In this document: piece after piece, positions 12,755 to 63,750 of the stretch
Layout: every line of letters begins with the position of its first letter
How positions within the stretch are numbered: position 1 is the first letter of the stretch
IMG/VR virus record: IMGVR_UViG_3300021255_000114
Location: 103,942-167,941 of that record
Length of the DNA stretch: 64,000 nucleotides
Direction: 5' to 3' (one strand)
Origin: a virus
Taxonomy: Duplodnaviria > Heunggongvirae > Uroviricota > Caudoviricetes
Made by a program: the position numbers and the translations under genes
The notes under the pieces: model-generated
Told to the model about the DNA's origin: nothing
Database searches by the model: none
Seen by the model: only the letters and a program-made list of their open reading frames with translations

Positions 12755-14830
12755 GTGGGAAATACATTTATTATAAACGAGGATGTTTTAAACGAGGTTG
12801 CCAATATAATGAAACCGACGGAATCGCAGTTTAATTCAAACGTGCGTTATTTCCTTCATCAGTTAATCGACGACCCTGTACATGCTGAAATCCCGACTTG
12901 CATAAAAATGGCTAATATTTCGCGTTCAAGGTTTATTAAAATGTTGATTGACCGAGGAATCCTAGTACGAAATGAACGCTTGAACGACACAGATAAGGAT
13001 GGGAATCACAAAACTCCGACAATGGCGGTTAAATATACCATTGTTAACAAAATCCCTGACGAATTGGAATATAAAGTTTCTAAAACGGATTTTGATAGAA
13101 GGATAGAAAAACTCCGCAGGAGCATATTTGAAAAAAATCTTCCCCAAAAGAAATTTAACAACCCATTGGGTGATAAAGTTGCAAATGCAAAGAACACTCC
13201 AATGACAATGGGATTTATTGCCCCCGGGGAGAAGAAAAACAATGACTTGAATGAAGAAGGTGGTGATGGGGGCGCAACAAGTGCTGACACATCAGGTGCG
13301 TTTGTGCAACCATTGTTTAAAAAAATAGTCAGGAGACAAATAAAGGAAATACTTGAACGCTTAACACCTGATACCGAAATAAGTAGCAGATACCGTAATC
13401 TTGGAGGTGGATTCGATGTCAAACTCGAAGACGGAACGTTTGAGAAAAGCCTTGTCACCATACAGAACAAATCCACTAAAACACTCTATCACATATGTTT
13501 TGACGGGGCTACATTCAACGTATTCAGAGATATGGGAGACGGAACACCTTGTACACACATGAGTTATGTTTTTGATAAACTCATTAACGCAATGAATCAG
13601 GATGGATACGTGAACGTCAACGAATCAGCCATGAGCAACGGGCGAGTCTTTAGAATAAGCGAAGAACAATACAAACAGATAGAGGAAACCACTTCAACAA
13701 TGAATGTTGGTGGGCCGAAAACGGATTATCAATATACAATTCCGTTCCTTGTAGATGGCAATGACGAAACAATGCAACGCCACAATGGAGAAGGGAATTC
13801 GATTTCAATAAATCACATTCGAGAATCAAAAAACCATGTCAATATGGATGTTGATATCAGGGATGGCGGTAGACATGCCGTCAAGATGACGGTGGATGAA
13901 TTCAAACAGGAAATGATACATGCCTATCATATGTATGCCATGGAACAGGAAAGTAAGTACAAATTCGATTTGCGATTAACTCCAAGCCCAGGTGATTTTG
14001 TATATAAATTGTGTTATAAAAATAAGGAAAATGAGAAATCGAAATATGCAGCCAAAATCTATAAGGATATATGGGGTGGAAAATACAAGTTCGATTCAGA
14101 GAATGTAGATGACTGTGGTGGTATAAAGATGTCAAGCAAAGGTTTTCCGTATATCATGTGTTGTGCCGGGGGTGATTGGGAATGTCCTGTATGTTTCTTC
14201 GTGTATTTCGACGGAAGCCATTTCAGGGGATATATACCATTAAAAGGCAATGCAATCAATAGAAACAACAATACAGCGTTTCAGGGAAACGGTGATGAGG
14301 AAGAGGCTAAATTCATTGCCAAGGAAAATGACATTGACTATGAGAAAGCAAAGGGTTTGACTGGTGACATTAAATTCAACGAGGATGCTTGTTTGAAGGA
14401 TTTCCTTTCAAGGGTTGAGGTAAAGGGAATCTATAAGAAACGTGACTATACGAAGGACGAACAAAGATTCAAGGAATATCGTAAGGAAAAAATCGCCGAC
14501 GAAAAGAAAAGGAGTGAGGAAGCCGAAAGAAGAAGACAGATGAATACACAAGAAAATAATGGCGAACCAGATGGCGGTAAAGACTTGAATGAGAATGAAG
14601 AAAAAGAAAATTTCTTTCAAAAACACGGTATAAAGGAAGTTTCCTGTGGTCTTGGATATTCCGAGAAGGAAGAGAAATGGTATGGTTGGAGCCATAGAGC
14701 AATTCATGGTTTCGGGATAGGTGATAAATGTGTAGAGTGTTATCCCACAGGTACTAAAGAAGGTAAAATAATTAAAACAATGGAACAGGCGAAGGAAGCA
14801 GCAAAGAAATTTGCAGACTCCGTCTCATAA
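12755..14830 (+). CDS. Multidomain hypothetical protein, possible internal-virion polyprotein
   Basis: 691 aa; unrelated-looking segments separated by LNE/VNE/IEE/IRE motifs. Confidence 0.65.
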   Translation: MGNTFIINEDVLNEVANIMKPTESQFNSNVRYFLHQLIDDPVHAEIPTCIKMANISRSRFIKMLIDRGILVRNERLNDTDKDGNHKTPTMAVKYTIVNKIPDELEYKVSKTDFDRRIEKLRRSIFEKNLPQKKFNNPLGDKVANAKNTPMTMGFIAPGEKKNNDLNEEGGDGGATSADTSGAFVQPLFKKIVRRQIKEILERLTPDTEISSRYRNLGGGFDVKLEDGTFEKSLVTIQNKSTKTLYHICFDGATFNVFRDMGDGTPCTHMSYVFDKLINAMNQDGYVNVNESAMSNGRVFRISEEQYKQIEETTSTMNVGGPKTDYQYTIPFLVDGNDETMQRHNGEGNSISINHIRESKNHVNMDVDIRDGGRHAVKMTVDEFKQEMIHAYHMYAMEQESKYKFDLRLTPSPGDFVYKLCYKNKENEKSKYAAKIYKDIWGGKYKFDSENVDDCGGIKMSSKGFPYIMCCAGGDWECPVCFFVYFDGSHFRGYIPLKGNAINRNNNTAFQGNGDEEEAKFIAKENDIDYEKAKGLTGDIKFNEDACLKDFLSRVEVKGIYKKRDYTKDEQRFKEYRKEKIADEKKRSEEAERRRQMNTQENNGEPDGGKDLNENEEKENFFQKHGIKEVSCGLGYSEKEEKWYGWSHRAIHGFGIGDKCVECYPTGTKEGKIIKTMEQAKEAAKKFADSVS

Positions 14831-47471: not shown

Positions 47472-48113
47472 ATGGGCAAACAGGAACCACAACACCATTT
47501 CAGTGATGGGTCAAAAGTATATCTGACAAGCGATCATCATTTTAATCATGGGAACATAATGAAGTTTTGTAAGCGTCCGTTCAACTCCGTTGAGGAAATG
47601 AACGAGGCGCTTATTGCCAATTGGAACAATAAGGTTCCTGAGGACGGGGTTGTTTTTCACCTTGGTGACTTTGCTTGGGGGCCGATTAGCCAATGGCGCC
47701 CGATTGTGGAACGGCTTAATGGCAAAATCATATTGATTAAAGGCAACCATGACACCAGTCAACTTAAAAGTCAGGCGCAGTTTGATGAATTGTTTGAATA
47801 CAGTACAATGCAGATGTTAATAGAGGTTGAGAAACGCAAATGCTACCTTAACCATTACCCTTTTCTTTGTTATGCGGGTACATATCGACCTGATGATCAG
47901 TTGGTATATTCGGCATTTGGACACGTTCATATGCGCCCTAATGACACAAGCGCGGATGCCCCAAGACTTAAAATGCTGTTTCCAACCCAATATGATGTCG
48001 GTGTGGATAATAACAACTACACCCCGATTTCATGGTATGAATTTGATGCAATTATAAAAAAACAAATCGAAAATAATAAAATAGAATATAAAGGGATACA
48101 CGATGACCAATAA
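47472..48113 (+). CDS. Calcineurin-like metallophosphoesterase
   Basis: SDHHF, LGDF, GNHD, GHVH, DVGVD. Confidence 0.85.
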   Translation: MGKQEPQHHFSDGSKVYLTSDHHFNHGNIMKFCKRPFNSVEEMNEALIANWNNKVPEDGVVFHLGDFAWGPISQWRPIVERLNGKIILIKGNHDTSQLKSQAQFDELFEYSTMQMLIEVEKRKCYLNHYPFLCYAGTYRPDDQLVYSAFGHVHMRPNDTSADAPRLKMLFPTQYDVGVDNNNYTPISWYEFDAIIKKQIENNKIEYKGIHDDQ

Positions 48114-50123: not shown

Positions 50124-51278
50124 ATGCGAATACATGATATATTACATGATGATGGGCGTCTTAATTGGGGTGTGATAACGACTATCCCTGAATTCAGGGC
50201 GCTTGAAAATACCCCACAGTCGAAAGAGTGGCATTCAGAGGGAAATGTATGGGAGCACACAAGACTTGTTGTCCATCAAATGGAGCGGATTTTAAAAGAA
50301 GGCGCCCCATTCAGAAACGCTCCTACAGAAGAAGCATTCAAGAAGTATCCTATTAATGAGACAGCCTTACTTGTGGCGGCATTATGCCACGATCTTGGAA
50401 AGGCTACCACAACCAAATGGGATGATGGTTTGAAGGAATATAAAACCAAGAATCACGGTCTTGAGGGTGAGCGCATTACACGTAAACTTTTCTTCAATGA
50501 ACCGGATATCAACCTTCGCGAACGCATATGTTGGCTTGTAAGACAGCATATGGCGTTACATCATATATTCGATATTGATAGCAAGGTTTATGAACGCATG
50601 ATGCGTCTTTATTTTGACCGTGGGAATATCCTTGAATTGTGTTACCTAAATTACGCAGATTCCATGGGTTCAATCAACGATGAATCCCGTAATGGCGATG
50701 ATTTCATAAACAACCGTATTGAACGCGTTTTGACAAGCGATTTCTCCGCCTCCTTGACCCGTTTCGACCTTGAACATCACTATTATGGTGCGATAAATGG
50801 TTCAACAGCCATTTCACCTAAAGTATATGTGATGTTGGGAATTGCCGGCAGCGGTAAAAGTACTTGGATTCAGGAGAACCATCCCGAACTTCCTGTCATT
50901 TCGAGAGACATTATTCGCGAGGAACTTGGGTATGTGAAACACGGTGAGAAGGCAAAATTAGGTAAAAAAGAAGAATCAAAGGTATCTGAAGTGTTTATCC
51001 AGAAAGCCATCAAACACCTTGAGAATGGCGAAGATATTATCATAGATAACCTAAACCTTACCAAGCGCTATCGTGATGCCTATCATAAGGAGTTCCTTCG
51101 CTTTGCCCCGTATTATGAATACGTTTACGTTGAGGCTCCTACAATTGAGGATAATGTGGCCAGAAGGAATGGGCAAATCCCCAAGTCCGAAATCTACAGA
51201 ATGTTGGATAATATGGAATTCCCTGAGCCACATGAATACAATGTCATTCGCTTTATCAAACAGACCGGAGAAAAATAA
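50124..51278 (+). CDS. HD phosphohydrolase + P-loop polynucleotide kinase-like protein (RNA end healing)
   Basis: WH.EG.VWEHT, CHDLGK, HM; GIAGSGKST, SRD.IR, IDN.NL...R. Confidence 0.8.
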   Translation: MRIHDILHDDGRLNWGVITTIPEFRALENTPQSKEWHSEGNVWEHTRLVVHQMERILKEGAPFRNAPTEEAFKKYPINETALLVAALCHDLGKATTTKWDDGLKEYKTKNHGLEGERITRKLFFNEPDINLRERICWLVRQHMALHHIFDIDSKVYERMMRLYFDRGNILELCYLNYADSMGSINDESRNGDDFINNRIERVLTSDFSASLTRFDLEHHYYGAINGSTAISPKVYVMLGIAGSGKSTWIQENHPELPVISRDIIREELGYVKHGEKAKLGKKEESKVSEVFIQKAIKHLENGEDIIIDNLNLTKRYRDAYHKEFLRFAPYYEYVYVEAPTIEDNVARRNGQIPKSEIYRMLDNMEFPEPHEYNVIRFIKQTGEK

Positions 51279-51767: not shown

Positions 51768-52583
51768 ATGGAAATCATTAAAACAGAACACGAAAACCTA
51801 TGCTTCGTTGGGGATATTCATGGGGATTTCACCGGCATATCCGGTATGATGAAATTCTCCAAAATGGAGGATGTTGCCTATGTATTTTGCGGGGATTGTG
51901 GTTTTGGATTTGAATCAATTGAATACTACAATCAAATTTTTAATAAAATAGGGAGAACCGCAAACAAAGTTAACGCTACCTGTTTTTTTGTCCGTGGAAA
52001 TCATGAATCCAAAGAATACTACGATTTTAACTTAATTAATAGGAAACGTTTTAAAACGGTAAAAGACTATACGGTCATCCAAACACATGGTCATAACATA
52101 CTTTGTGTTGGAGGCGCCATGTCCATTGACCGTGTAGAACGTATGGAATACAATGCGGCTTATGTAAGAAAGTATATGCGTTACCATCAGGTTTCTGAAG
52201 AAGAGGCTATACTGAAGGCAAAGAAATGCTATTGGATGGATGAAGCCCCGGTTTATGATGAAGCATCTTTGGACGAACTCAAAGAAAAAGGAATTCAGAT
52301 TGATATCGTGGCAACACACACGTGCCCATCATTCGCGCAGCCATTGGCCAAAAAAAGTATTGAGAATTGGATAAAACGTGATCCGATGCTGGATAACGAT
52401 ATAAATTACGAACGGCTCGTGATGACAAATATATACAACAAATTGCTGTCTGACGGGCATCCACTTCAAAAATGGATATATGGGCACTATCACCATCACA
52501 ACAGCGAATATATTGGTGACGTTAACTTTGTGATGCTTGACAAGGTTAGAAACGGAAAAATGGATGTATTGCAAGTGTATTGA
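51768..52583 (+). CDS. Calcineurin-like metallophosphoesterase
   Basis: GDIHG, GDCG, GNHE, THTCP, GHYH. Confidence 0.85.
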   Translation: MEIIKTEHENLCFVGDIHGDFTGISGMMKFSKMEDVAYVFCGDCGFGFESIEYYNQIFNKIGRTANKVNATCFFVRGNHESKEYYDFNLINRKRFKTVKDYTVIQTHGHNILCVGGAMSIDRVERMEYNAAYVRKYMRYHQVSEEEAILKAKKCYWMDEAPVYDEASLDELKEKGIQIDIVATHTCPSFAQPLAKKSIENWIKRDPMLDNDINYERLVMTNIYNKLLSDGHPLQKWIYGHYHHHNSEYIGDVNFVMLDKVRNGKMDVLQVY

Positions 52584-53422: not shown

Positions 53423-55009
53423 ATGTCAAAAAATACAAAACCTATTTTCACCGCGAGTGAAAATATGAAAAATGAATACTGCGCCAAGATTGTGCGCATT
53501 GGGGAAATGAAGGACATTGAAGGATCTGATTTCCTTGTGCAGACCATCGTTGATGGTAATAGCATCGTTATTTCCAAGGGAATGTTCGAGACCGGTGAAC
53601 CTGTCATCTATTGTATGAACGAAACCCAACTGAACAAGGAATTCCTATCAGTCAACAATCAGTTTGAAATTGGTTCTCTTGAACTAAACAAGAACGCCAA
53701 GGAGGTACTTGCCCTTATGGGTGAAGGAAAAAACGACGAGGCAAAGAAACTTGTAGGTTTTTTTAACAAACACGGTCGTGTTAAACTGATCCGCCTTCGT
53801 GGTTGCCCTTCTTACGGCTGCATATTCAAGAAGGAATCACTTGTCAATTGGGATAAGAAACTCGAGGGTGTAAACCTTGAGGATTACTTCACCGTTGATG
53901 AAAATGGATATGAGCATCCATTTGAATTCGACACAGTGGACGGCAAACTATTCATTGAGGCATATGTCCCCCCAATGCCTGAAGTTCGCCATGGACGGAC
54001 CGATAAACTTTTCCGCAAGCGTATGAAAAAACTTCAGCGTTTCAATCGTATGGTTCCGGGGCAATTTGCATACCATTATTCAACTTCACAATTGCAGGCA
54101 AATATGTGGAGATTAACCCCTATAACAGTTGTTACTATTTCAACCAAGTGTCATGGAACCAGTTCGATTAATGCTAACATTCTTACTCGTATCCCTATCA
54201 AGTTGTCAATGGTTCAGCGCCATAACAATAAGGTTATCAATCGCGAACTGAAGATGGTTGGCCGTAAGGAACAGCGTTTCTATTGGCAGCGTGAAATCGT
54301 GAAGAATCGAATCAAGTCCCTCAAGGGTAAGTATATTCAGGATTATCGTGTTGATTATGGTCCTGTTTATTCAAGCCGTGGTGTCATCAAGAATCAGTAC
54401 ATCAACAAGAATGTTACACCGGGGTTTTATGGTGTTGATATTTGGAGTGAGTACGGAGAACTTCTGAAGCCTTTTATCCCTAAGGGAATTACCGTGTACA
54501 GCGAAATCTGCGGTTATATTACCAACTCTGATAAAATGATTCAGAAGAAGTACGATTACGGGTGCAAACGCGGTGAGAACTTTATAATGCCATACCGTAT
54601 CACCTTTACCGATCCTGATGGGAATAAGACCGAATGGAACGTTAACGAGGTTTATGGTTGGACCATCAATTTAATAAAGGAACATCCTGAACTTGCGCCC
54701 CGTGTGAAGCCCATCAACATCCTTTACCACGGTACACTTGGTGATCTTTATCCCGAAATCAGTACAACTGAACATTGGCAGGAGAATGTACTTCAGGCCA
54801 TGAAGGCTGATAAAGAACACTTCGGAATGGAACTTGACGAACCACTTTGTATTAATAAAGTTCCTCGTGAGGGAATCGTCATTCGTATTGACGATGACGA
54901 AAAGACTGAAGCGTTCAAACTGAAGACGGATAAATTTTATTTTGCTGAAGGTGAAGCGGTTAGTCGTGGAGAGGTTGATATAGAAATGATGGATGGCTAC
55001 GGAAAATAA
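53423..55009 (+). CDS. ATP-dependent RNA ligase, Rnl2/DRB0094-like
   Basis: N-terminal OB-like region, KCHGTS (motif I), SEICG, REGIVIR, FKLK. Confidence 0.75.
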   Translation: MSKNTKPIFTASENMKNEYCAKIVRIGEMKDIEGSDFLVQTIVDGNSIVISKGMFETGEPVIYCMNETQLNKEFLSVNNQFEIGSLELNKNAKEVLALMGEGKNDEAKKLVGFFNKHGRVKLIRLRGCPSYGCIFKKESLVNWDKKLEGVNLEDYFTVDENGYEHPFEFDTVDGKLFIEAYVPPMPEVRHGRTDKLFRKRMKKLQRFNRMVPGQFAYHYSTSQLQANMWRLTPITVVTISTKCHGTSSINANILTRIPIKLSMVQRHNNKVINRELKMVGRKEQRFYWQREIVKNRIKSLKGKYIQDYRVDYGPVYSSRGVIKNQYINKNVTPGFYGVDIWSEYGELLKPFIPKGITVYSEICGYITNSDKMIQKKYDYGCKRGENFIMPYRITFTDPDGNKTEWNVNEVYGWTINLIKEHPELAPRVKPINILYHGTLGDLYPEISTTEHWQENVLQAMKADKEHFGMELDEPLCINKVPREGIVIRIDDDEKTEAFKLKTDKFYFAEGEAVSRGEVDIEMMDGYGK

Positions 55010-55082
55010 AATATTTTAGTTTGTTTTCCATTATGGAATTGTGTTATATTTATTTAATAATAATGTAACACAATTCTTTTTT

Positions 55083-56111
55083 ATGGCACATCCAATAACA
55101 ATAGATTATGATTTAATTAAAAATCAGTTAGACAATGGTTTATATGAGAGTTATATAAATCGGGAAATATCAACTAAAAAACTTGAAGAAATTTTAAATG
55201 TTTCAAATTCTGTACTTATGAAAGCGTTTCGTATGTTTGGATTTAAAACTAAAACAGAGTACAGGCATTCTAAAATTAAAAATGACTATTTTAAAGACAT
55301 ACACACTGAAGAACAGGCTTATATATTGGGGTTTTATTTAGCTGATGGTTCTTTAAGCAAAAAATATAATAGGCTATCTTTTTCAGTGACTAAAGATGAT
55401 GATGAAGTTCTAAAAATTATACAGTCAGCAATTGCACCCGATGAAAAAATTTTATACTCTAAAGAGAGTATGAACAAAGAAGGGTATATATCAAAACCTA
55501 TGGCTATACTTGGGTTTACCTCTAAATCTATTACGTTTGATTTAGAACGGTATGGTATAGGTAATAATAAGACATATAAAACGGATATAGACATTTCTTT
55601 TATTCCGGAAAAACTTATGATACATTTCATTAGGGGTTATTTTGACGGTGATGGTACGGTATATGCTGGTTCGGTAACGAGAAAAGTTAATGGAAAAGAT
55701 TATTTGACGGAAAATTGTAATTGGTCAATAATAAGCCATTGCAAAACACATTTACTTCAAATAAAAGATTTTCTCGAAAAAGAATATAACATTAAAGCCA
55801 ATGTATTTGACGATAGTAGGGGTAATTCACTTGTTGCTATCACAAACAAGGAAGACTTTTTGAAATTTAGAGAAATTTTATATAAAGATGCTAATTTTTT
55901 TCTAAAAAGAAAAAAAGAAAAATATTTTTCATATGAATTTCACTTGAAAAAGGTTGACAAAAAAGTGAAAGTCTTTTACAATGATGAATGGATTGAATTC
56001 AATAACCAAGCAGATGCCGGAAAATTTTTGGGGGTTACAGGAACATCAATAAGAAATTGGATTAAAAAAGGTAATAAAGCCCCATATTTAATCGTTAATG
56101 TTGATAATTAA
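55083..56111 (+). CDS. Free-standing LAGLIDADG homing endonuclease
   Basis: YILGFYLADGS and FIRGYFDGDGT; C-terminal HTH; lower GC than neighbours. Confidence 0.88.
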   Translation: MAHPITIDYDLIKNQLDNGLYESYINREISTKKLEEILNVSNSVLMKAFRMFGFKTKTEYRHSKIKNDYFKDIHTEEQAYILGFYLADGSLSKKYNRLSFSVTKDDDEVLKIIQSAIAPDEKILYSKESMNKEGYISKPMAILGFTSKSITFDLERYGIGNNKTYKTDIDISFIPEKLMIHFIRGYFDGDGTVYAGSVTRKVNGKDYLTENCNWSIISHCKTHLLQIKDFLEKEYNIKANVFDDSRGNSLVAITNKEDFLKFREILYKDANFFLKRKKEKYFSYEFHLKKVDKKVKVFYNDEWIEFNNQADAGKFLGVTGTSIRNWIKKGNKAPYLIVNVDN

Positions 56112-56678: not shown

Positions 56679-57365
56679 ATGGAAACAAATACCAAATACC
56701 CAAGGACATATCATCTGCCATTTTCACCGGGAACAAGTAGCGATGATAGGAAACTAACTCAGGAACAATTTGAAGAGTGGTTTCTTAACACACCATTGGT
56801 GGTTTCTGAAAAGATGGATGGTGAAGGGGTTATGTTTTCAAACTTAGACGTTTACAGTCGTTCACACGCTGCGCCGACAAGACACCCGTGGAGCAGAAAC
56901 CTTTGGGATAAGGATGGTTTGCTATGGAAGGTCAAGGAAAAGATAGGCCAGGATGAATATGTATATGGCGAGAATCTGTATGGGGAACATTCCATCCATT
57001 ATGATCATCTTACCTCCTATTTTTATATGTTTGCCGCAAGGGACAACGATAATTGGTATAGCTGGAGGGATGTGGAACTTATGGCTGAAATCCTCAACGT
57101 GTCCACAGTTCCGGTTCTGTTTGAAGGAACAATAAACACCGAAAAGGAATTGAGGGAACTTATTGATGATATAATGTCCAAACCGTCGACATTCGGAACG
57201 GAAAAAGAAGGTGTTGTTATCAGACATGTTGAAGCATTCCCTGTGGAATTAAATGGAGAATCCGTATTCCATAAAAACGTTTGCAAGTGGGTAAGACCGC
57301 ATCACGTACAGACAGATTCCCATTGGACAAGACATTGGAAAAAGGCAGAACTTAAACGTTATTGA
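56679..57365 (+). CDS. ATP-dependent RNA ligase family protein
   Basis: KYPRTYHLP, EKMDGE (motif I), GEN, EGVVIR, KWVR. Confidence 0.85.
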   Translation: METNTKYPRTYHLPFSPGTSSDDRKLTQEQFEEWFLNTPLVVSEKMDGEGVMFSNLDVYSRSHAAPTRHPWSRNLWDKDGLLWKVKEKIGQDEYVYGENLYGEHSIHYDHLTSYFYMFAARDNDNWYSWRDVELMAEILNVSTVPVLFEGTINTEKELRELIDDIMSKPSTFGTEKEGVVIRHVEAFPVELNGESVFHKNVCKWVRPHHVQTDSHWTRHWKKAELKRY

Positions 57366-60704: not shown

Positions 60705-60835
60705 TGTTTTGTACGCAAGTGGCTGAAGCAGGAGGTCGTTAAGGATGCGTCCCTAAAACCGCCAGAGTTTTTCCGACAAGTAGATTCGGAATTAAAAAAG
60801 TTACTCTCACGTTGGTTCGAATCCAACCAAAACAG
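60705..60835 (+). tRNA. Atypical tRNA-like gene with expanded anticodon loop and variable arm; identity unclear
   Basis: TGTTTTG/CAAAACA acceptor, D-loop AAGTGG, GTTGG-TTCGAAT-CCAAC T-arm; 131 nt. Confidence 0.6.
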
Positions 60836-60907
60836 CAAAATAAAAAAAGTTCTTTGAAAGTTGCAAAAATAGATATACAAATAGTATATTTGAATTGTAA
60901 AAAATAT

Positions 60908-61059
60908 TGCGGGGTGGAGCAGTGGTAGCTCGCAAGGCTCATCTACGGAGAAAACCGATTATAAATCACAGTTTCTGCGTCAGGAAGAGTGACAAAGTGG
61001 TTCAATGTCCACGGCAGAGACCAACCTTGAGGTCGGCGGTTCGAATCCGTCCCCCGCTA
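60908..61059 (+). tRNA. Initiator tRNA-fMet(CAT) interrupted by an 80-nt insertion (60943-61022)
   Basis: TGCGGGG/CCCCGCT acceptor with 1:72 mismatch; CAAGG-CTCAT[insert]AA-CCTTG; AGGTC; GGCGG-TTCGAAT-CCGTC. Confidence 0.88.
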
Positions 61060-61377
61060 CAAAAAAATCAACGAAAAAGTTGATAGAGTACTTTGACATA
61101 TTGGATTAAGGTAGATAAGACTTTAAACCACCATCAGTGGATGGTATGGAGAAGTCAAAAAGAAAATTGGCTATTGGTCTAACTTAATAAGACGTATCTT
61201 GATGAAGAACGAGCACACAACATCATTGTGCCACCTTGCACCAAGAAAATTTCCGAGAATGACGGAGATAGCCAACAAAACGGTAAACCGGTAAGTTCCA
61301 CCTGCCGATGCAGCAGAGCCATAAACCGTAAGGCTACTGCAACGCAAGGATAGATAGTTTAGAACCGGAGCCGTCAT

Positions 61378-61467
61378 GAGAGCCATACAGCAAACTTTAT
61401 TCAAAAACATTTTTTCATAATTGATAAAGTTTAGTGAAAAGTGGTGGAAACTATGCATAGGCTCTTG
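61378..61467 (+). ncRNA. ACAGCAA-motif RNA, copy 1
   Basis: GAGAGCC-ATACAGCAAA...GGCTCTT-G. Confidence 0.6.
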
Positions 61468-61547
61468 AAAGCACATTGGACCCAACGAAGGTGAGTAGCC
61501 TTGAGCGAAATTAAAACATCTGAGCCTTGCAGTCGGTTCCATTGTAT

Positions 61548-61639: not shown

Positions 61640-61785
61640 CAAAAACGAGTTACAAGTTTTTCTTAAAAAAAAAACTACAGGCTTTATCAACACGAAATTC
61701 CCTGCCCGGCATGCTTCAGTCGACATTATATGCCAAGGGGCCGGCCTAAAAATAGGTTGATATCCAATTGGAAGTCTGTAGAACT

Positions 61786-61904
61786 ATACTTCGTCGGGGC
61801 ATCGACGAATTGGGAAGTGGCAGTAAGACCGGTGCAACCACGGTTGCAGGGCAGTCACGTTATACTCAAGAATCCCGCGTGTTTTAAGCGTGGGAGTATG
61901 TCAA
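61786..61904 (+). mobile_element. IS200/IS605-type right end / TnpB omega-RNA-like remnant, no transposase or tnpB
   Basis: CAAGAA-TCCCGCG-loop-CGTGGGA-GTATGTCAA terminal hairpin; upstream TTCGTCG/CGACGAA, GTAAGACC and TGCAACC/GGTTGCA. Confidence 0.6.
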
Positions 61905-61936
61905 GGCATACCCCGGTTCGAGTCCGGGACGGCACT
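61905..61936 (+). pseudogene. tRNA 3' half (T-arm + acceptor strand) with no clear 5' half
   Basis: CCCGG-TTCGAGT-CCGGG-ACGGCAC-T. Confidence 0.55.
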
Positions 61937-61940
61937 CTAT

Positions 61941-62030
61941 GGAAGGCGCACAGCAAAATATTTTTGGTTAATACAATTGAAATGGAATCAAGCGTTAGAT
62001 GGTTCGAACCCATCAAAGAAATGCCTTCTG
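61941..62030 (+). ncRNA. ACAGCAA-motif RNA, copy 2 (has T-arm and anticodon-like arm)
   Basis: GGAAGGCG-CACAGCAAAA...TTGA-AATGGAA-TCAA...GATGG-TTCGAAC-CCATC...TGCCTTCT-G. Confidence 0.65.
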
Positions 62031-62277
62031 AAAAATAGCGGCTTAGATGAGTTTCCCGCTTTATAAAAAGAACTCTTTTCGAAAAGAAAAATAAACAACT
62101 TCTCAAGTTAGGACCGGCTATAGCATACTCCATCGCGTAATAACGGTGGTTGCGTTGGAGGAAGGCCGGGGAATATGGATAAGGGGATTGGTCTCGCCAA
62201 AGTCCGGTGGAAATGGTACCGGGATTTCCCGAAACCTGTGACTACGGAAATCAGGTTGAAGTTGTTTTAACTATAAT

Positions 62278-62336
62278 GGAAGAGGTACAGCAAACAATTA
62301 AGCATCAATCTTTTAAATTGAAACCGCTCTCTTCTG
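62278..62336 (+). ncRNA. ACAGCAA-motif RNA, copy 3 (Lys-type anticodon stem-loop)
   Basis: GGAAGAGG-TACAGCAAA...TCAAT-CTTTTAA-ATTGA...TCTCTTCT-G. Confidence 0.65.
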
Positions 62337-62342
62337 AATTTT

Positions 62343-62483
62343 GCCACCATAGCACAGCTGGTAGTGCGGCTCACTTGTCTACAGGGTAAGGTCCTGCGAG
62401 AGCCTTTAAATCGAGGGTATTGTTTCAGTGATGAATATTTACCCACAATGAGCAGGTCGGCGGTTCGAACCCGTCTGGTGGCT
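62343..62483 (+). tRNA. tRNA-Thr(TGT) interrupted by a 68-nt insertion (62379-62446)
   Basis: GCCACCA/TGGTGGC acceptor; GCTCA-CTTGT[insert]AA-TGAGC; AGGTC; GGCGG-TTCGAAC-CCGTC. Confidence 0.88.
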
Positions 62484-62697: not shown

Positions 62698-62835
62698 CAG
62701 ATGAAACAACACCGTCTGCAATGTATAGGATCCACGCATTGCGGAAGAAATTACCGAATAAGCGGAGAGTCAATAATAGAATAGGCCGGGTCGGTATTCA
62801 AGGTCTGATCAACTGTTGGAATGTTGGAGTAGTTT

Positions 62836-62903
62836 AGTTATGTGGTGTAATAGGTTAGCACGCTGCCGCAAGCGGAGGTCAGGTTCGAGTCCTTGCGTAA
62901 CAA
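62836..62903 (+). pseudogene. tRNA-like element with shortened anticodon arm
   Basis: GTGT-AATAGGTTA-GCAC D-arm, CTGC-CGCAA-GCGG 5-nt loop, TTCGAGT T-loop, GTTATG/CGTAAC. Confidence 0.5.
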
Positions 62904-62912
62904 CTAAGATAC

Positions 62913-62972
62913 GGAACCCGTACAGCAAAACAATTTTAAGAACTTTTTGAAATCATTCTCAAAATGGGTTCT
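62913..62972 (+). ncRNA. ACAGCAA-motif RNA, copy 4
   Basis: GGAACCCG-TACAGCAAAA...TGGGTTCT. Confidence 0.6.
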
Positions 62973-63447
62973 AACTAATATACTGTGTGGAAGTGGCAAT
63001 TTGCCCGCCTAAGGGAGGAACCGGTCCGCTATATGGATTAAGCCCTCAAACACATAGTCAACTAATGTGGAGTTATCTAATTCCTTCTCAACTCCGAGAG
63101 TTGGAATAAAACGAGAAGGGAATTGATTATAATTTCATTATTGGAGGGTCGCTCCCTCCCCGAGACTCATTTTCGGAACAGTTTGGTGAGAATCGGTCTG
63201 TAGGTTACAAACTCCCCTGTATGCAGTCCTAATAACGCGGTGCTGTAATAAGGTGAAACGTAATACGAAGGTATAGCCTTACCGAACGTGCTCGACGGAA
63301 CGTTGTGGTTTTGACTCTGTAGGTATTTGGCCGTCTTGTAAATATAACAAACCTAATCAGATAGGACATGCACCGGAAGATACGGATGAAGGAGACTCCG
63401 AAACATTTATAGAGTGTGCGGTAAGCCGTAGTAAGACGCACAAATTT

Positions 63448-63526: not shown

Positions 63527-63750
63527 AAATCTTGGGAGGTAGGCTTGAGAGTAGCCATCCTTTAAAGAGTGACAGACTGTAACGGAGGGTCAAAATCCTG
63601 TCATAATATAGGTCTTAAAAGACAGGATTCCTTATCGGCAGCAAGTAAACGTGAAACGTGACGTGAAGTCTATGGTAACTACATTATCGTTTTGAAAATG
63701 CTTATCCATAGTTAGTAGGCGGTCTTTGGTGTAATAGCACACCAAGATTT
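63527..63750 (+). ncRNA. ncRNA mimicking the 23S rRNA L11-binding domain (H42-H44) with a ~158-nt insertion
   Basis: GGAGGTAGGCTTGAGAGTAGCCATCCTTTAAAGA ... GGTGTAATAGCACAC closed by AAATCTTGG/CCAAGATTT. Confidence 0.75.

What the first reader, a model, noticed from the sequence alone, without database searches (positions are those of the whole stretch)
60943..61022. Candidate new class of short tRNA intron: 80-nt insert at 36/37 of tRNA-fMet
Seen: an intact initiator tRNA split right after the anticodon, CAT|CTAC...GACC|AA. Insert layout: CTA, hairpin CGG-AGAAAA-CCG, linker with TATAAATC, then an 8-bp stem GTTTCTGC/GCAGAGAC ending one base before the 3' junction and enclosing GTCA/TGAC and GTGG-TTCAATGT-CCAC hairpins (a mini tRNA-like junction). 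Established: bacterial tRNA introns are group I (typically about 200 nt or more, ending in G) or group II; archaeal/eukaryal ones sit mostly at 37/38. This fits none. The Thr insert shares position and consensus. Inference: an undescribed ribozyme or protein-spliced intron that may hide the anticodon loop from nucleases or make tRNA supply conditional.
Basis: partly seen in the sequence, partly recalled or inferred. Interest (0 to 1): 0.92.

Follow-up and report, generated by a model that had tools for sequence, protein, structure and literature searches.

The report
Knotted tRNA-shaped intron in phage tRNA
A giant phage's only detected initiator-tRNA gene is split beside the anticodon by an 80-base insert predicted to fold into a small RNA knot followed by a miniature tRNA; the same build interrupts tRNA genes of many other phages, and it is likely cut out by tRNA-trimming enzymes and likely rejoined by a phage RNA ligase, which would explain puzzling phage tRNA introns first noticed in 2019.

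Summary
In detail: tRNA-fMet (60908-61059) is split at 36/37 by 80 nt, and tRNA-Thr by 68 nt. A third insert lies in tRNA-Arg outside the window. The window is part of a complete 373-kb phage. The insert is not group I, II or III, not BHB-type, not a MITE, and has no Rfam match. But the class is not undescribed: it belongs to the 'enigmatic' Lak-megaphage tRNA introns (Devoto 2019), which have no published mechanism in my 10 searches. I collected 40 distinct inserts of 66-141 nt in 11 anticodons. Shared build: N-U-A, a hairpin whose loop pairs with an A-rich linker (pseudoknot, covariation-supported), then a tRNA top half whose T-loop lies 13 nt before a terminal C. Best guess (0.45): tRNA mimicry recruits host RNase P and RNase Z, the knot marks the 5' cut, and a phage ATP-dependent ligase seals. 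An Rnl5-type ligase is in 7 of 7 near-complete carriers versus 4 of 15 controls. No spliced RNA was seen in 8 runs. A self-splicing ribozyme remains possible (0.2). This scan found the family before on other DNA (e1-10450109, e1-5959538, e1-5369779).

The parts
60908..60942 (+). tRNA-fMet 5' exon (positions 1-36, anticodon CAT at 60940-60942)
60943..61022 (+). 80-nt intron of the Lak type
   Evidence: 78 of 80 nt identical in phage G001
60943..60945 (+). N-U-A start (U+2, A+3 conserved in the family)
   Evidence: 21 of 25 inserts in a scan that did not constrain the 5' end
60946..60970 (+). 5' module: hairpin P1 (60946-60957) and A-rich linker; predicted pseudoknot pairs G60950-C60967 and A60951-U60966
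   Evidence: loop-linker covariation in the family; in this copy only 2 bp
60971..61021 (+). mini-tRNA: acceptor-like stem (60971-60978/61014-61021), D-like hairpin with GG (60979-60993), T-like arm (60997-61012)
61022..61022 (+). terminal unpaired C, 13 nt after the T-like loop
   Evidence: C in 13 of 13 inserts not found by a pattern
61023..61059 (+). tRNA-fMet 3' exon (positions 37-73)
62343..62483 (+). tRNA-Thr(TGT) gene with a 68-nt intron of the same family at 62379-62446 (T-arm-less form capped by a GUGA loop; 5-bp pseudoknot)
53423..55009 (+). 528-aa Rnl5-type ATP-dependent RNA ligase (OB fold plus nucleotidyltransferase); candidate sealing enzyme, link inferred
   Evidence: phrog_968 E 2e-32; model matches Naegleria Rnl5 ligase E 8e-14
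56679..57365 (+). 228-aa RNA ligase (PF09414), one of three such hits in the genome; alternative sealing enzyme
50124..51278 (+). HD plus polynucleotide-kinase-like protein; candidate end-healing enzyme (metallophosphoesterases at 47472-48113 and 51768-52583)

Best explanation
The 80-nt insert is a phage tRNA intron of the Lak type, built from a predicted small pseudoknot followed by a miniature tRNA, and it is likely removed by protein nucleases and the exons likely rejoined by a phage ATP-dependent RNA ligase. Shown: the split gene, the family, the conserved ends, the covarying stems, the fixed T-loop-to-end distance, and ligase and end-healing genes 1-10 kb upstream of the tRNA cluster. Inferred steps: (1) host RNase P cuts in front of the mini-tRNA; (2) host RNase Z cuts after the unpaired terminal C, leaving a 5'-phosphate on exon 2; (3) the pseudoknot presents the single-stranded N-U-A so that an endonuclease, with RNase E (U at +2) the best-fitting known one, cuts at the 5' splice site, leaving a 3'-OH; (4) a phage ligase joins 3'-OH to 5'-phosphate. 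The confidence given is for protein cutting guided by tRNA mimicry plus a phage ligase; the exact set of enzymes is less sure (about 0.2).
For: Removal restores a normal tRNA in 20 of 21 parsed genes. A natural intronless allele (Lak C1 Thr) differs from Lak A1 by exactly the insert. The fMet exons of G000 and G001 differ at 7 of 72 positions, almost all in compensating stem pairs. At default settings ARAGORN finds no uninterrupted Met, Thr or Arg tRNA among 19 tRNAs in G000. tRNA mimicry: 16 of 21 have a 7-nt TTCR loop exactly 13 nt before the last C, 2 an 8-nt loop at that distance, 3 a GUGA loop 14 nt before; 15 of 18 keep a D-loop-like GG. The acceptor-like stem varies freely in sequence but stays paired. 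One related insert is a bare 44-nt mini-tRNA with no 5' module (L392). tRNase Z cuts after the discriminator even in substrates lacking D and anticodon arms (PMC9141469, passages; human enzyme). RNase E consensus RN|WUU (PMC5222698, passages): U+2 in 21 of 21, W+1 in 18 of 21, R-2 in 15 of 21. Full-length Rnl5-type ligase in 4 of 4 new carriers at least 90% complete versus 4 of 15 such controls (Fisher p 0.018), and in G000, G001 and Lak A1. No RtcB in these 7. B. thetaiotaomicron, a control genome, has RNase E/G and RNase P RNA hits.
Against: No spliced junction of this phage's tRNAs in 8 of 13 listed runs that I laid; all were contigs and none covered the junctions with this phage's sequence, so splicing itself is unshown. 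U+3 of the RNase E consensus is met by 0 of 21 (A in all). The invariant U-A, the terminal C and a conserved pseudoknot are more than a ruler nuclease needs. Human tRNase Z is strongly inhibited by 5' leaders over 8 nt (PMC9141469), so the order of cuts matters. Rnl5 ligases seal nicks in duplexes (abstracts of PMC5397189, PMC1807946), not loop junctions. The ligase is common in large phages (194 stretches); none of the 80 loci fetched around it showed a family intron. Carriers are partly related, controls were not checked genome-wide for introns, and one partial carrier (G018) has RtcB. Three inserts lack the T arm. The host is not identified.
Confidence: 0.45

Rival explanations
1. The insert is a new, very small self-splicing ribozyme. 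The pseudoknot, U+2, A+3 and the terminal C meet at the three-way junction on the anticodon stem and form the active site; the mini-tRNA is a scaffold.
For: Pseudoknot covariation (score 196 against a permutation mean of 143; 0 of 10000 permutations reach it). A few invariant nucleotides lie at both splice sites. The site moves with the intron (35/36 or 36/37), so the information is in the intron. T-arm-less forms exist. No dedicated nuclease was found among proteins shared by carriers.
Against: Only about 5-7 conserved nucleotides, few for two cuts and a ligation (comparison with known ribozymes recalled). No exon-pairing guide: nearly the same 5' module (26 of 28 nt) serves fMet and Thr exons. 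No match to any Rfam ribozyme. Ligase enrichment in carriers. Strict tRNA-elbow features point to protein recognition.
Confidence: 0.2
2. Mixed or dedicated route: the pseudoknot self-cleaves at the 5' splice site, or an unrecognised phage endonuclease makes both cuts, giving cyclic-phosphate and 5'-OH ends that are healed by the phage kinase/phosphatases and ligated, or joined directly by host RtcB.
For: HD-kinase, two metallophosphoesterases, RlaP and a CCA enzyme lie in the window. RtcB is present in the B. thetaiotaomicron control. A+3 is invariant although RNase E prefers U there.
Against: No archaeal-type splicing endonuclease, RNase Z-like, RNase E or RNase P gene in the carriers searched. 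The one small shared unknown protein is absent from 4 of 4 complete new carriers and has no fold match. End-healing enzymes are common in jumbo phages for anticodon-nuclease repair (PMC7824862, passages).
Confidence: 0.2
3. The insert is never removed to give a working tRNA. The gene is a decoy or a precursor of a small tRNA-shaped RNA, or the insert is a selfish insertion that inactivates a dispensable phage tRNA.
For: No spliced product seen. Phage tRNAs are often dispensable (recalled). The genome has other tRNA-shaped RNAs with loop inserts that do not restore a normal loop.
Against: Exact restoration of a 7-nt loop with an anticodon fitting the body across 11 anticodons. Compensatory exon changes. 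An exact intronless allele. No target-site repeat or terminal inverted repeat, and no second copy in G000 (no extra 16-mer).
Confidence: 0.12

Closest known systems
'Enigmatic' tRNA introns of Lak megaphages (Devoto et al. 2019, PMC6784885; passages and Table S6 read)
   Same: Anticodon-loop position, N-U-A start, hairpin from +4, A-rich linker, nested tRNA-like domain with T-loop 13 nt before a terminal C, large phage host. Devoto noted that one intron encodes a possible tRNA.
   Different: Here in the initiator tRNA of a 373-kb, standard-code, non-Lak phage; more reduced (80 and 68 nt; 8-nt T-like loop, or no T arm). In what I read the paper gives no shared consensus, pseudoknot, 13-nt rule or mechanism, and it calls the introns I read as Asn(GTT) 35/36 'Tyr(GTA)'.
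Bacterial group I tRNA introns (e.g. Leu-UAA, fMet, Ile, Arg)
   Same: Sit in the anticodon loop of tRNAs, including initiator tRNA (recalled); removal restores the tRNA.
   Different: Much shorter (66-141 nt); 0 of 40 end in G; 13 of 40 lack U before the 5' site; no S-element match; no Rfam hit.
Archaeal/eukaryal tRNA introns (EndA/TSEN with RtcB or Trl1)
   Same: Short, probably protein-spliced introns near the anticodon that appear in many isotypes.
   Different: Sites 35/36 and 36/37 rather than mainly 37/38; a three-way junction rather than bulge-helix-bulge; no PF01974 endonuclease and no RtcB in G000.
RNase P / RNase Z processing of tRNA-like elements, and phage anticodon repair by Pnkp plus RNA ligase
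   Same: What the best model says it works like: a tRNA-shaped cassette is excised by maturation enzymes, and broken anticodon loops are resealed by a phage ligase (PMC7824862 passages; tRNA-like cassettes recalled).
   Different: Neither is known to me as a splicing route; here both would be combined, with a pseudoknot marking the 5' cut.

Membership tests
Lak-type phage tRNA intron | Insert in the anticodon loop of a phage tRNA whose removal restores the tRNA | tested here: met
Lak-type phage tRNA intron | Nested tRNA-like domain at the 3' end | tested here: met
   acceptor-like, D-like and T-like arms in the fMet insert; degenerate in the Thr insert
Lak-type phage tRNA intron | Same ends and 5' module as the Lak introns (N-U-A, P1, A-rich linker, terminal C); my definition, drawn from Table S6 | tested here: met
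   5 of 5 distinct Lak introns and both window inserts
Lak-type phage tRNA intron | Actual excision in RNA | tested here: inconclusive
   8 runs laid, contigs only, no coverage of the junctions by this phage's sequence
Group I intron | Terminal G and U before the 5' splice site | tested here: not met
   0 of 40 end in G; U at -1 in 27 of 40, including this one
Group I intron | P3-P7 catalytic core, about 200 nt or more | tested here: not met
   66-141 nt, no S motif, no Rfam match
Group II / III intron | 5' GUGYG (II) or NUNNG (III) and domain V/VI (consensus recalled) | tested here: not met
   0 of 40 start GUGYG; G at +5 in 7 of 40; no Rfam match
Archaeal BHB intron | Bulge-helix-bulge at the junctions and an EndA endonuclease | tested here: not met
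   predicted fold gives a three-way junction; PF01974 absent from G000
MITE / miniature transposon | Terminal inverted repeats, target duplication, several copies | tested here: not met
Known small ribozymes (hammerhead, HDV/theta, twister, pistol, hairpin) | Catalytic consensus or Rfam model | tested here: not met
   no Rfam hit at E<=5; hammerhead CUGANGA in 0 of 40
Self-splicing RNA of any kind | Protein-free cleavage and ligation | not testable with these tools
   needs an in vitro assay
RNase Z substrate | Acceptor plus T helix of 12 bp or more ending in one unpaired base | tested here: met
   13-nt rule; geometry only, cleavage untested; the long 5' leader would inhibit the human enzyme

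The most novel reading that the evidence does not exclude
These 66-141-nt inserts are a new class of self-splicing ribozyme, far smaller than group I or II introns, in which a small pseudoknot and the terminal C form the active site on the anticodon stem, and which moves between tRNA isotypes and unrelated giant phages.
Probability: 0.2. Interest if true: 0.96.

Novelty: new variant of a known kind. Interest (0 to 1): 0.72.

Why it matters
Bacteria and their viruses are thought to splice tRNAs only with group I or II ribozymes. Phage tRNA introns were reported in 2019 and again in 262 jumbo-phage genomes in 2026 (PMC13037316, passage) without a mechanism. A defined consensus (N-U-A, pseudoknot, 13-nt ruler, terminal C), exact splice sites and 66-80-nt members make the question directly testable in a tube. 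Either outcome would be new: splicing assembled from tRNA-maturation enzymes and a phage ligase, or the smallest self-splicing intron. It also matters for annotation: these genes are missed or mis-typed by standard tRNA finders, so phage tRNA sets, including initiator tRNAs, are undercounted.

Tried and rejected
Rfam on the window, the tRNA cluster and the rest of the cluster outside the window: no match to the inserts. BLAST of both window genes against 50,697 phage records hit exons only. The first loose pattern gave mostly chance hits: 2 family members among 120 loci. A covariance model from a MAFFT alignment had no base pairs, found the two window inserts, missed the Arg insert and gave no credible free-standing copy. 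A scan of 185,579 prokaryote genomes with the 35/36-type pattern gave 47 hits, none a member; the 36/37 type was not scanned there. Relatives of the 228-aa ligase were not found. Candidate nucleases: RtcB, Rnl1, EndA, RNase Z-like, RNase E/G and RNase P RNA were absent from the carriers searched (the Rnl1 control rang nowhere, so that blank is weak). Of shared unknown proteins, the 240-aa one looks primase-like, the 451-aa one is an RNA-binding PHROG, and the 101-aa one was rejected. An exon-pairing internal guide was looked for by eye and not found. Ten literature searches (seven of them aimed at phage tRNA introns) found no mechanistic paper; the library lacks most subscription journals. Not seen: the Supplementary Information PDF of PMC6784885 and Additional file 1 of PMC13037316, which may discuss the introns.

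Full report
Setting. The window is G000:C1:103942-167941 of a complete 372,793-base virus record with direct terminal repeats. It reads in the standard code and carries sigma factors, IF3, chaperones and List-Bact repeats. Near-identical RNA contigs occur in animal gut metatranscriptomes. A Bacteroidales host is my inference from these features and from database names of ligase relatives; it was not tested.

The observation. Exon 1 (60908-60942) ends in CAT, the 80-nt insert is 60943-61022, and exon 2 (61023-61059) starts AA. Deleting the insert gives a tRNA-Met(CAT) with initiator marks, and the junction cannot slide. The fold is as described (-21 kcal/mol, 4 of 200 shuffles as good). tRNA-Thr (62343-62483) has a 68-nt insert at the same site, and a tRNA-Arg outside the window has a 71-nt insert at 35/36. 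Among the 19 tRNAs ARAGORN finds at default settings there is no uninterrupted Met, Thr or Arg. Both window genes recur letter for letter in another metagenome contig. Rfam has no model for the inserts.

The family. Pattern scans and whole-record reading gave 21 parsed introns, and a later scan added 19, for 40 distinct sequences of 66-141 nt in 11 anticodons, 22 at 36/37 and 18 at 35/36; some are close relatives. Five are Lak megaphage introns, matching Table S6 of Devoto et al. 2019 (PMC6784885). That paper calls them enigmatic, notes that one encodes a possible tRNA, and offers no mechanism in the passages I read. Later papers only mention them (PMC8346664 and PMC13037316, one passage each).

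Conserved ends, with controls for circularity. My first patterns demanded TAC, AAATY and a final C. Among the 13 introns found without a pattern, U+2, A+3 and the terminal C hold in 13 of 13, though I chose the 35/36 or 36/37 register by eye there. A blind test followed: a scan anchored only on the 3' end gave 123 matches in 122 loci; in 28, some deletion ending at the C produced a valid tRNA; of 25 distinct inserts, 21 begin N-U-A. The other four are a 44-nt bare mini-tRNA (L392) and three that look like chance. The splice site is fixed independently by Lak C1, whose Thr gene lacks exactly the insert of Lak A1.

The 3' domain is a tRNA top half. Of 21, 16 have a 7-nt TTCR loop closed by 4-6 pairs exactly 13 nt before the last C; the two fMet copies have an 8-nt loop at that distance; three (including the window's Thr and the Arg) have a GUGA tetraloop 14 nt before it. 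A D-loop-like GG is kept in 15 of 18. The acceptor-like stem changes sequence freely and stays paired. Longer members contain an almost complete tRNA, so the window's insert is a reduced form.

The 5' domain is a pseudoknot. The loop of the first hairpin is complementary to the A-rich linker. With one pair per loop sequence (n=23) the pairing score is 196 against a permutation mean of 143, and 0 of 10000 permutations reach it; for runs of 4 bp or more, 12 against 8, with 98 of 10000. With all 34 distinct pairs the figures are 1 and 300 of 10000. Three of 40 introns were not parsed and two were mis-parsed by the script. In the 20 introns with a six-base A-rich loop, G at loop position 2 goes with C in the linker (13) and A with U (7), with no exception by my reading; six of the seven A-U cases are Lak-like, so this counts as few events. 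In the window's fMet copy the knot is only 2 bp (GA/UC) and rests on the family evidence.

Selection and mobility. Phage G001 differs in size, code and gene content, yet its fMet intron is 78 of 80 identical while its exons differ at 7 of 72 positions, nearly all in compensating pairs. A Thr intron of G002 shares 26 of the first 28 nt with the fMet intron. The elements therefore appear to move between phages and isotypes; how is unknown. There is no terminal repeat, target duplication or second copy.

Candidate enzymes. The window encodes a CCA enzyme, RlaP, an HD-kinase, two metallophosphoesterases and two ligases upstream of the tRNA cluster. The 528-aa ligase folds like the Rnl5 ligase of Naegleria and is one of few proteins shared by G000, G001, G002 and Lak A1. 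Full-length matches occur in 4 of 4 further carriers at least 90% complete and 4 of 15 such controls (3 of 37 handles not held; p 0.018, or 0.002 with the first three carriers, uncorrected for kinship). Among incomplete carriers 2 of 9 have a full-length match. The ligase is widespread, and none of 80 loci around it showed a family intron, so it is at most necessary. Rnl5 enzymes seal duplex nicks (abstracts), which fits an anticodon loop poorly; the three PF09414 ligases are alternatives. No phage RtcB, EndA, RNase Z-like, RNase E or RNase P gene was found in the first carriers, and the one small shared unknown protein fails.

Mechanism. The simplest reading of a kept T-loop, D-loop GG and fixed arm length is recognition by enzymes that read the tRNA elbow. 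tRNase Z cuts after the discriminator, even without D and anticodon arms, but the human enzyme is inhibited by long leaders (PMC9141469), so RNase P would cut first. The bare mini-tRNA insert L392 would need only these two enzymes and a ligase. In the knotted form a further cut is needed at the 5' site; U+2 fits the RNase E rule (PMC5222698), A+3 does not. That these enzymes leave 3'-OH and 5'-phosphate ends is recalled knowledge; such ends suit ATP-dependent ligases. I put this route at 0.45, full self-splicing at 0.2, a mixed or dedicated-nuclease route at 0.2, and no splicing at 0.12.

RNA evidence. Eight of 13 listed runs were laid. Neighbouring non-coding RNAs are covered by near-identical contigs, but neither intron junction is covered by this phage's sequence. 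Uninterrupted fMet forms with the CAT-AA junction differ in the D or T arm and belong to other genomes. Splicing is therefore not shown.

Novelty. A new, reduced variant of a reported but unexplained kind. Earlier notes of this scan describe the same family on other DNA. Those read pointed to the nested mini-tRNA and to trimming enzymes plus ligase; I reached the pseudoknot before reading e1-10450109. These notes are not independent support. Interest 0.72.

Noticed in passing
L366:4492-4832 (G000:C1:171492-171832): tRNA-Leu(TAA) split by a 257-nt insert that ends in G and carries group I-like core motifs, apparently at the unusual position 31/32; Rfam did not match it.
   Followed up: partly
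L366:6398-6842; window about 61941-62034, 62281-62340, 62905-62975; also L232, L248, L282, L317: A second family: tRNA-shaped or free RNAs carrying an ACAGCAA motif with a short flanking stem, often inside the anticodon loop; removal does not obviously restore a normal loop; no Rfam match.
   Followed up: no
window 62699-62901: One RNA contig (run X2, depth 2.9) joins 62901 back to 62699, the base after tRNA-Gly: a possible circular RNA ending in a tRNA-like element. Single contig, may be an artefact.
   Followed up: no
window about 61290-61490, 61720-62000, 62050-62330, 63020-63430, 63540-63730: Structured-looking spacers between tRNAs, covered by near-identical contigs in gut RNA runs of several studies, with no Rfam match.
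   Followed up: partly
window 60705-60836: A tRNA-shaped element with an enlarged anticodon and variable region; ARAGORN calls it Leu with a 38-nt intron; it does not follow the family rules.
   Followed up: no
L392 (IMG/VR contig of 340 kb): tRNA-Lys split at 36/37 by a 44-nt bare mini-tRNA without the pseudoknot module.
   Followed up: partly
L127:12209-12372, L314:268-482: The Lak 'Tyr(GTA)' intron genes read better as Asn(GTT) with the intron at 35/36: short variable arm, G73, family ends.
   Followed up: yes
L174:15337-17892; window 55041-56111: In G001 the Rnl5-type ligase gene is split by a LAGLIDADG gene; in G000 a related LAGLIDADG gene follows the intact ligase.
   Followed up: no
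L366:3783-4124 (G000:C1:170783-171124): Permuted tmRNA in the tRNA cluster.
   Followed up: no
window 12755-14830: 691-aa protein with a C-terminal Tad6 (Thoeris inhibitor) domain.
   Followed up: no
window 60905-61086: A related phage contig in run X13 keeps the flanking cluster but has 119 other bases in place of this 182-base slot, so the fMet gene is variable in the lineage.
   Followed up: no
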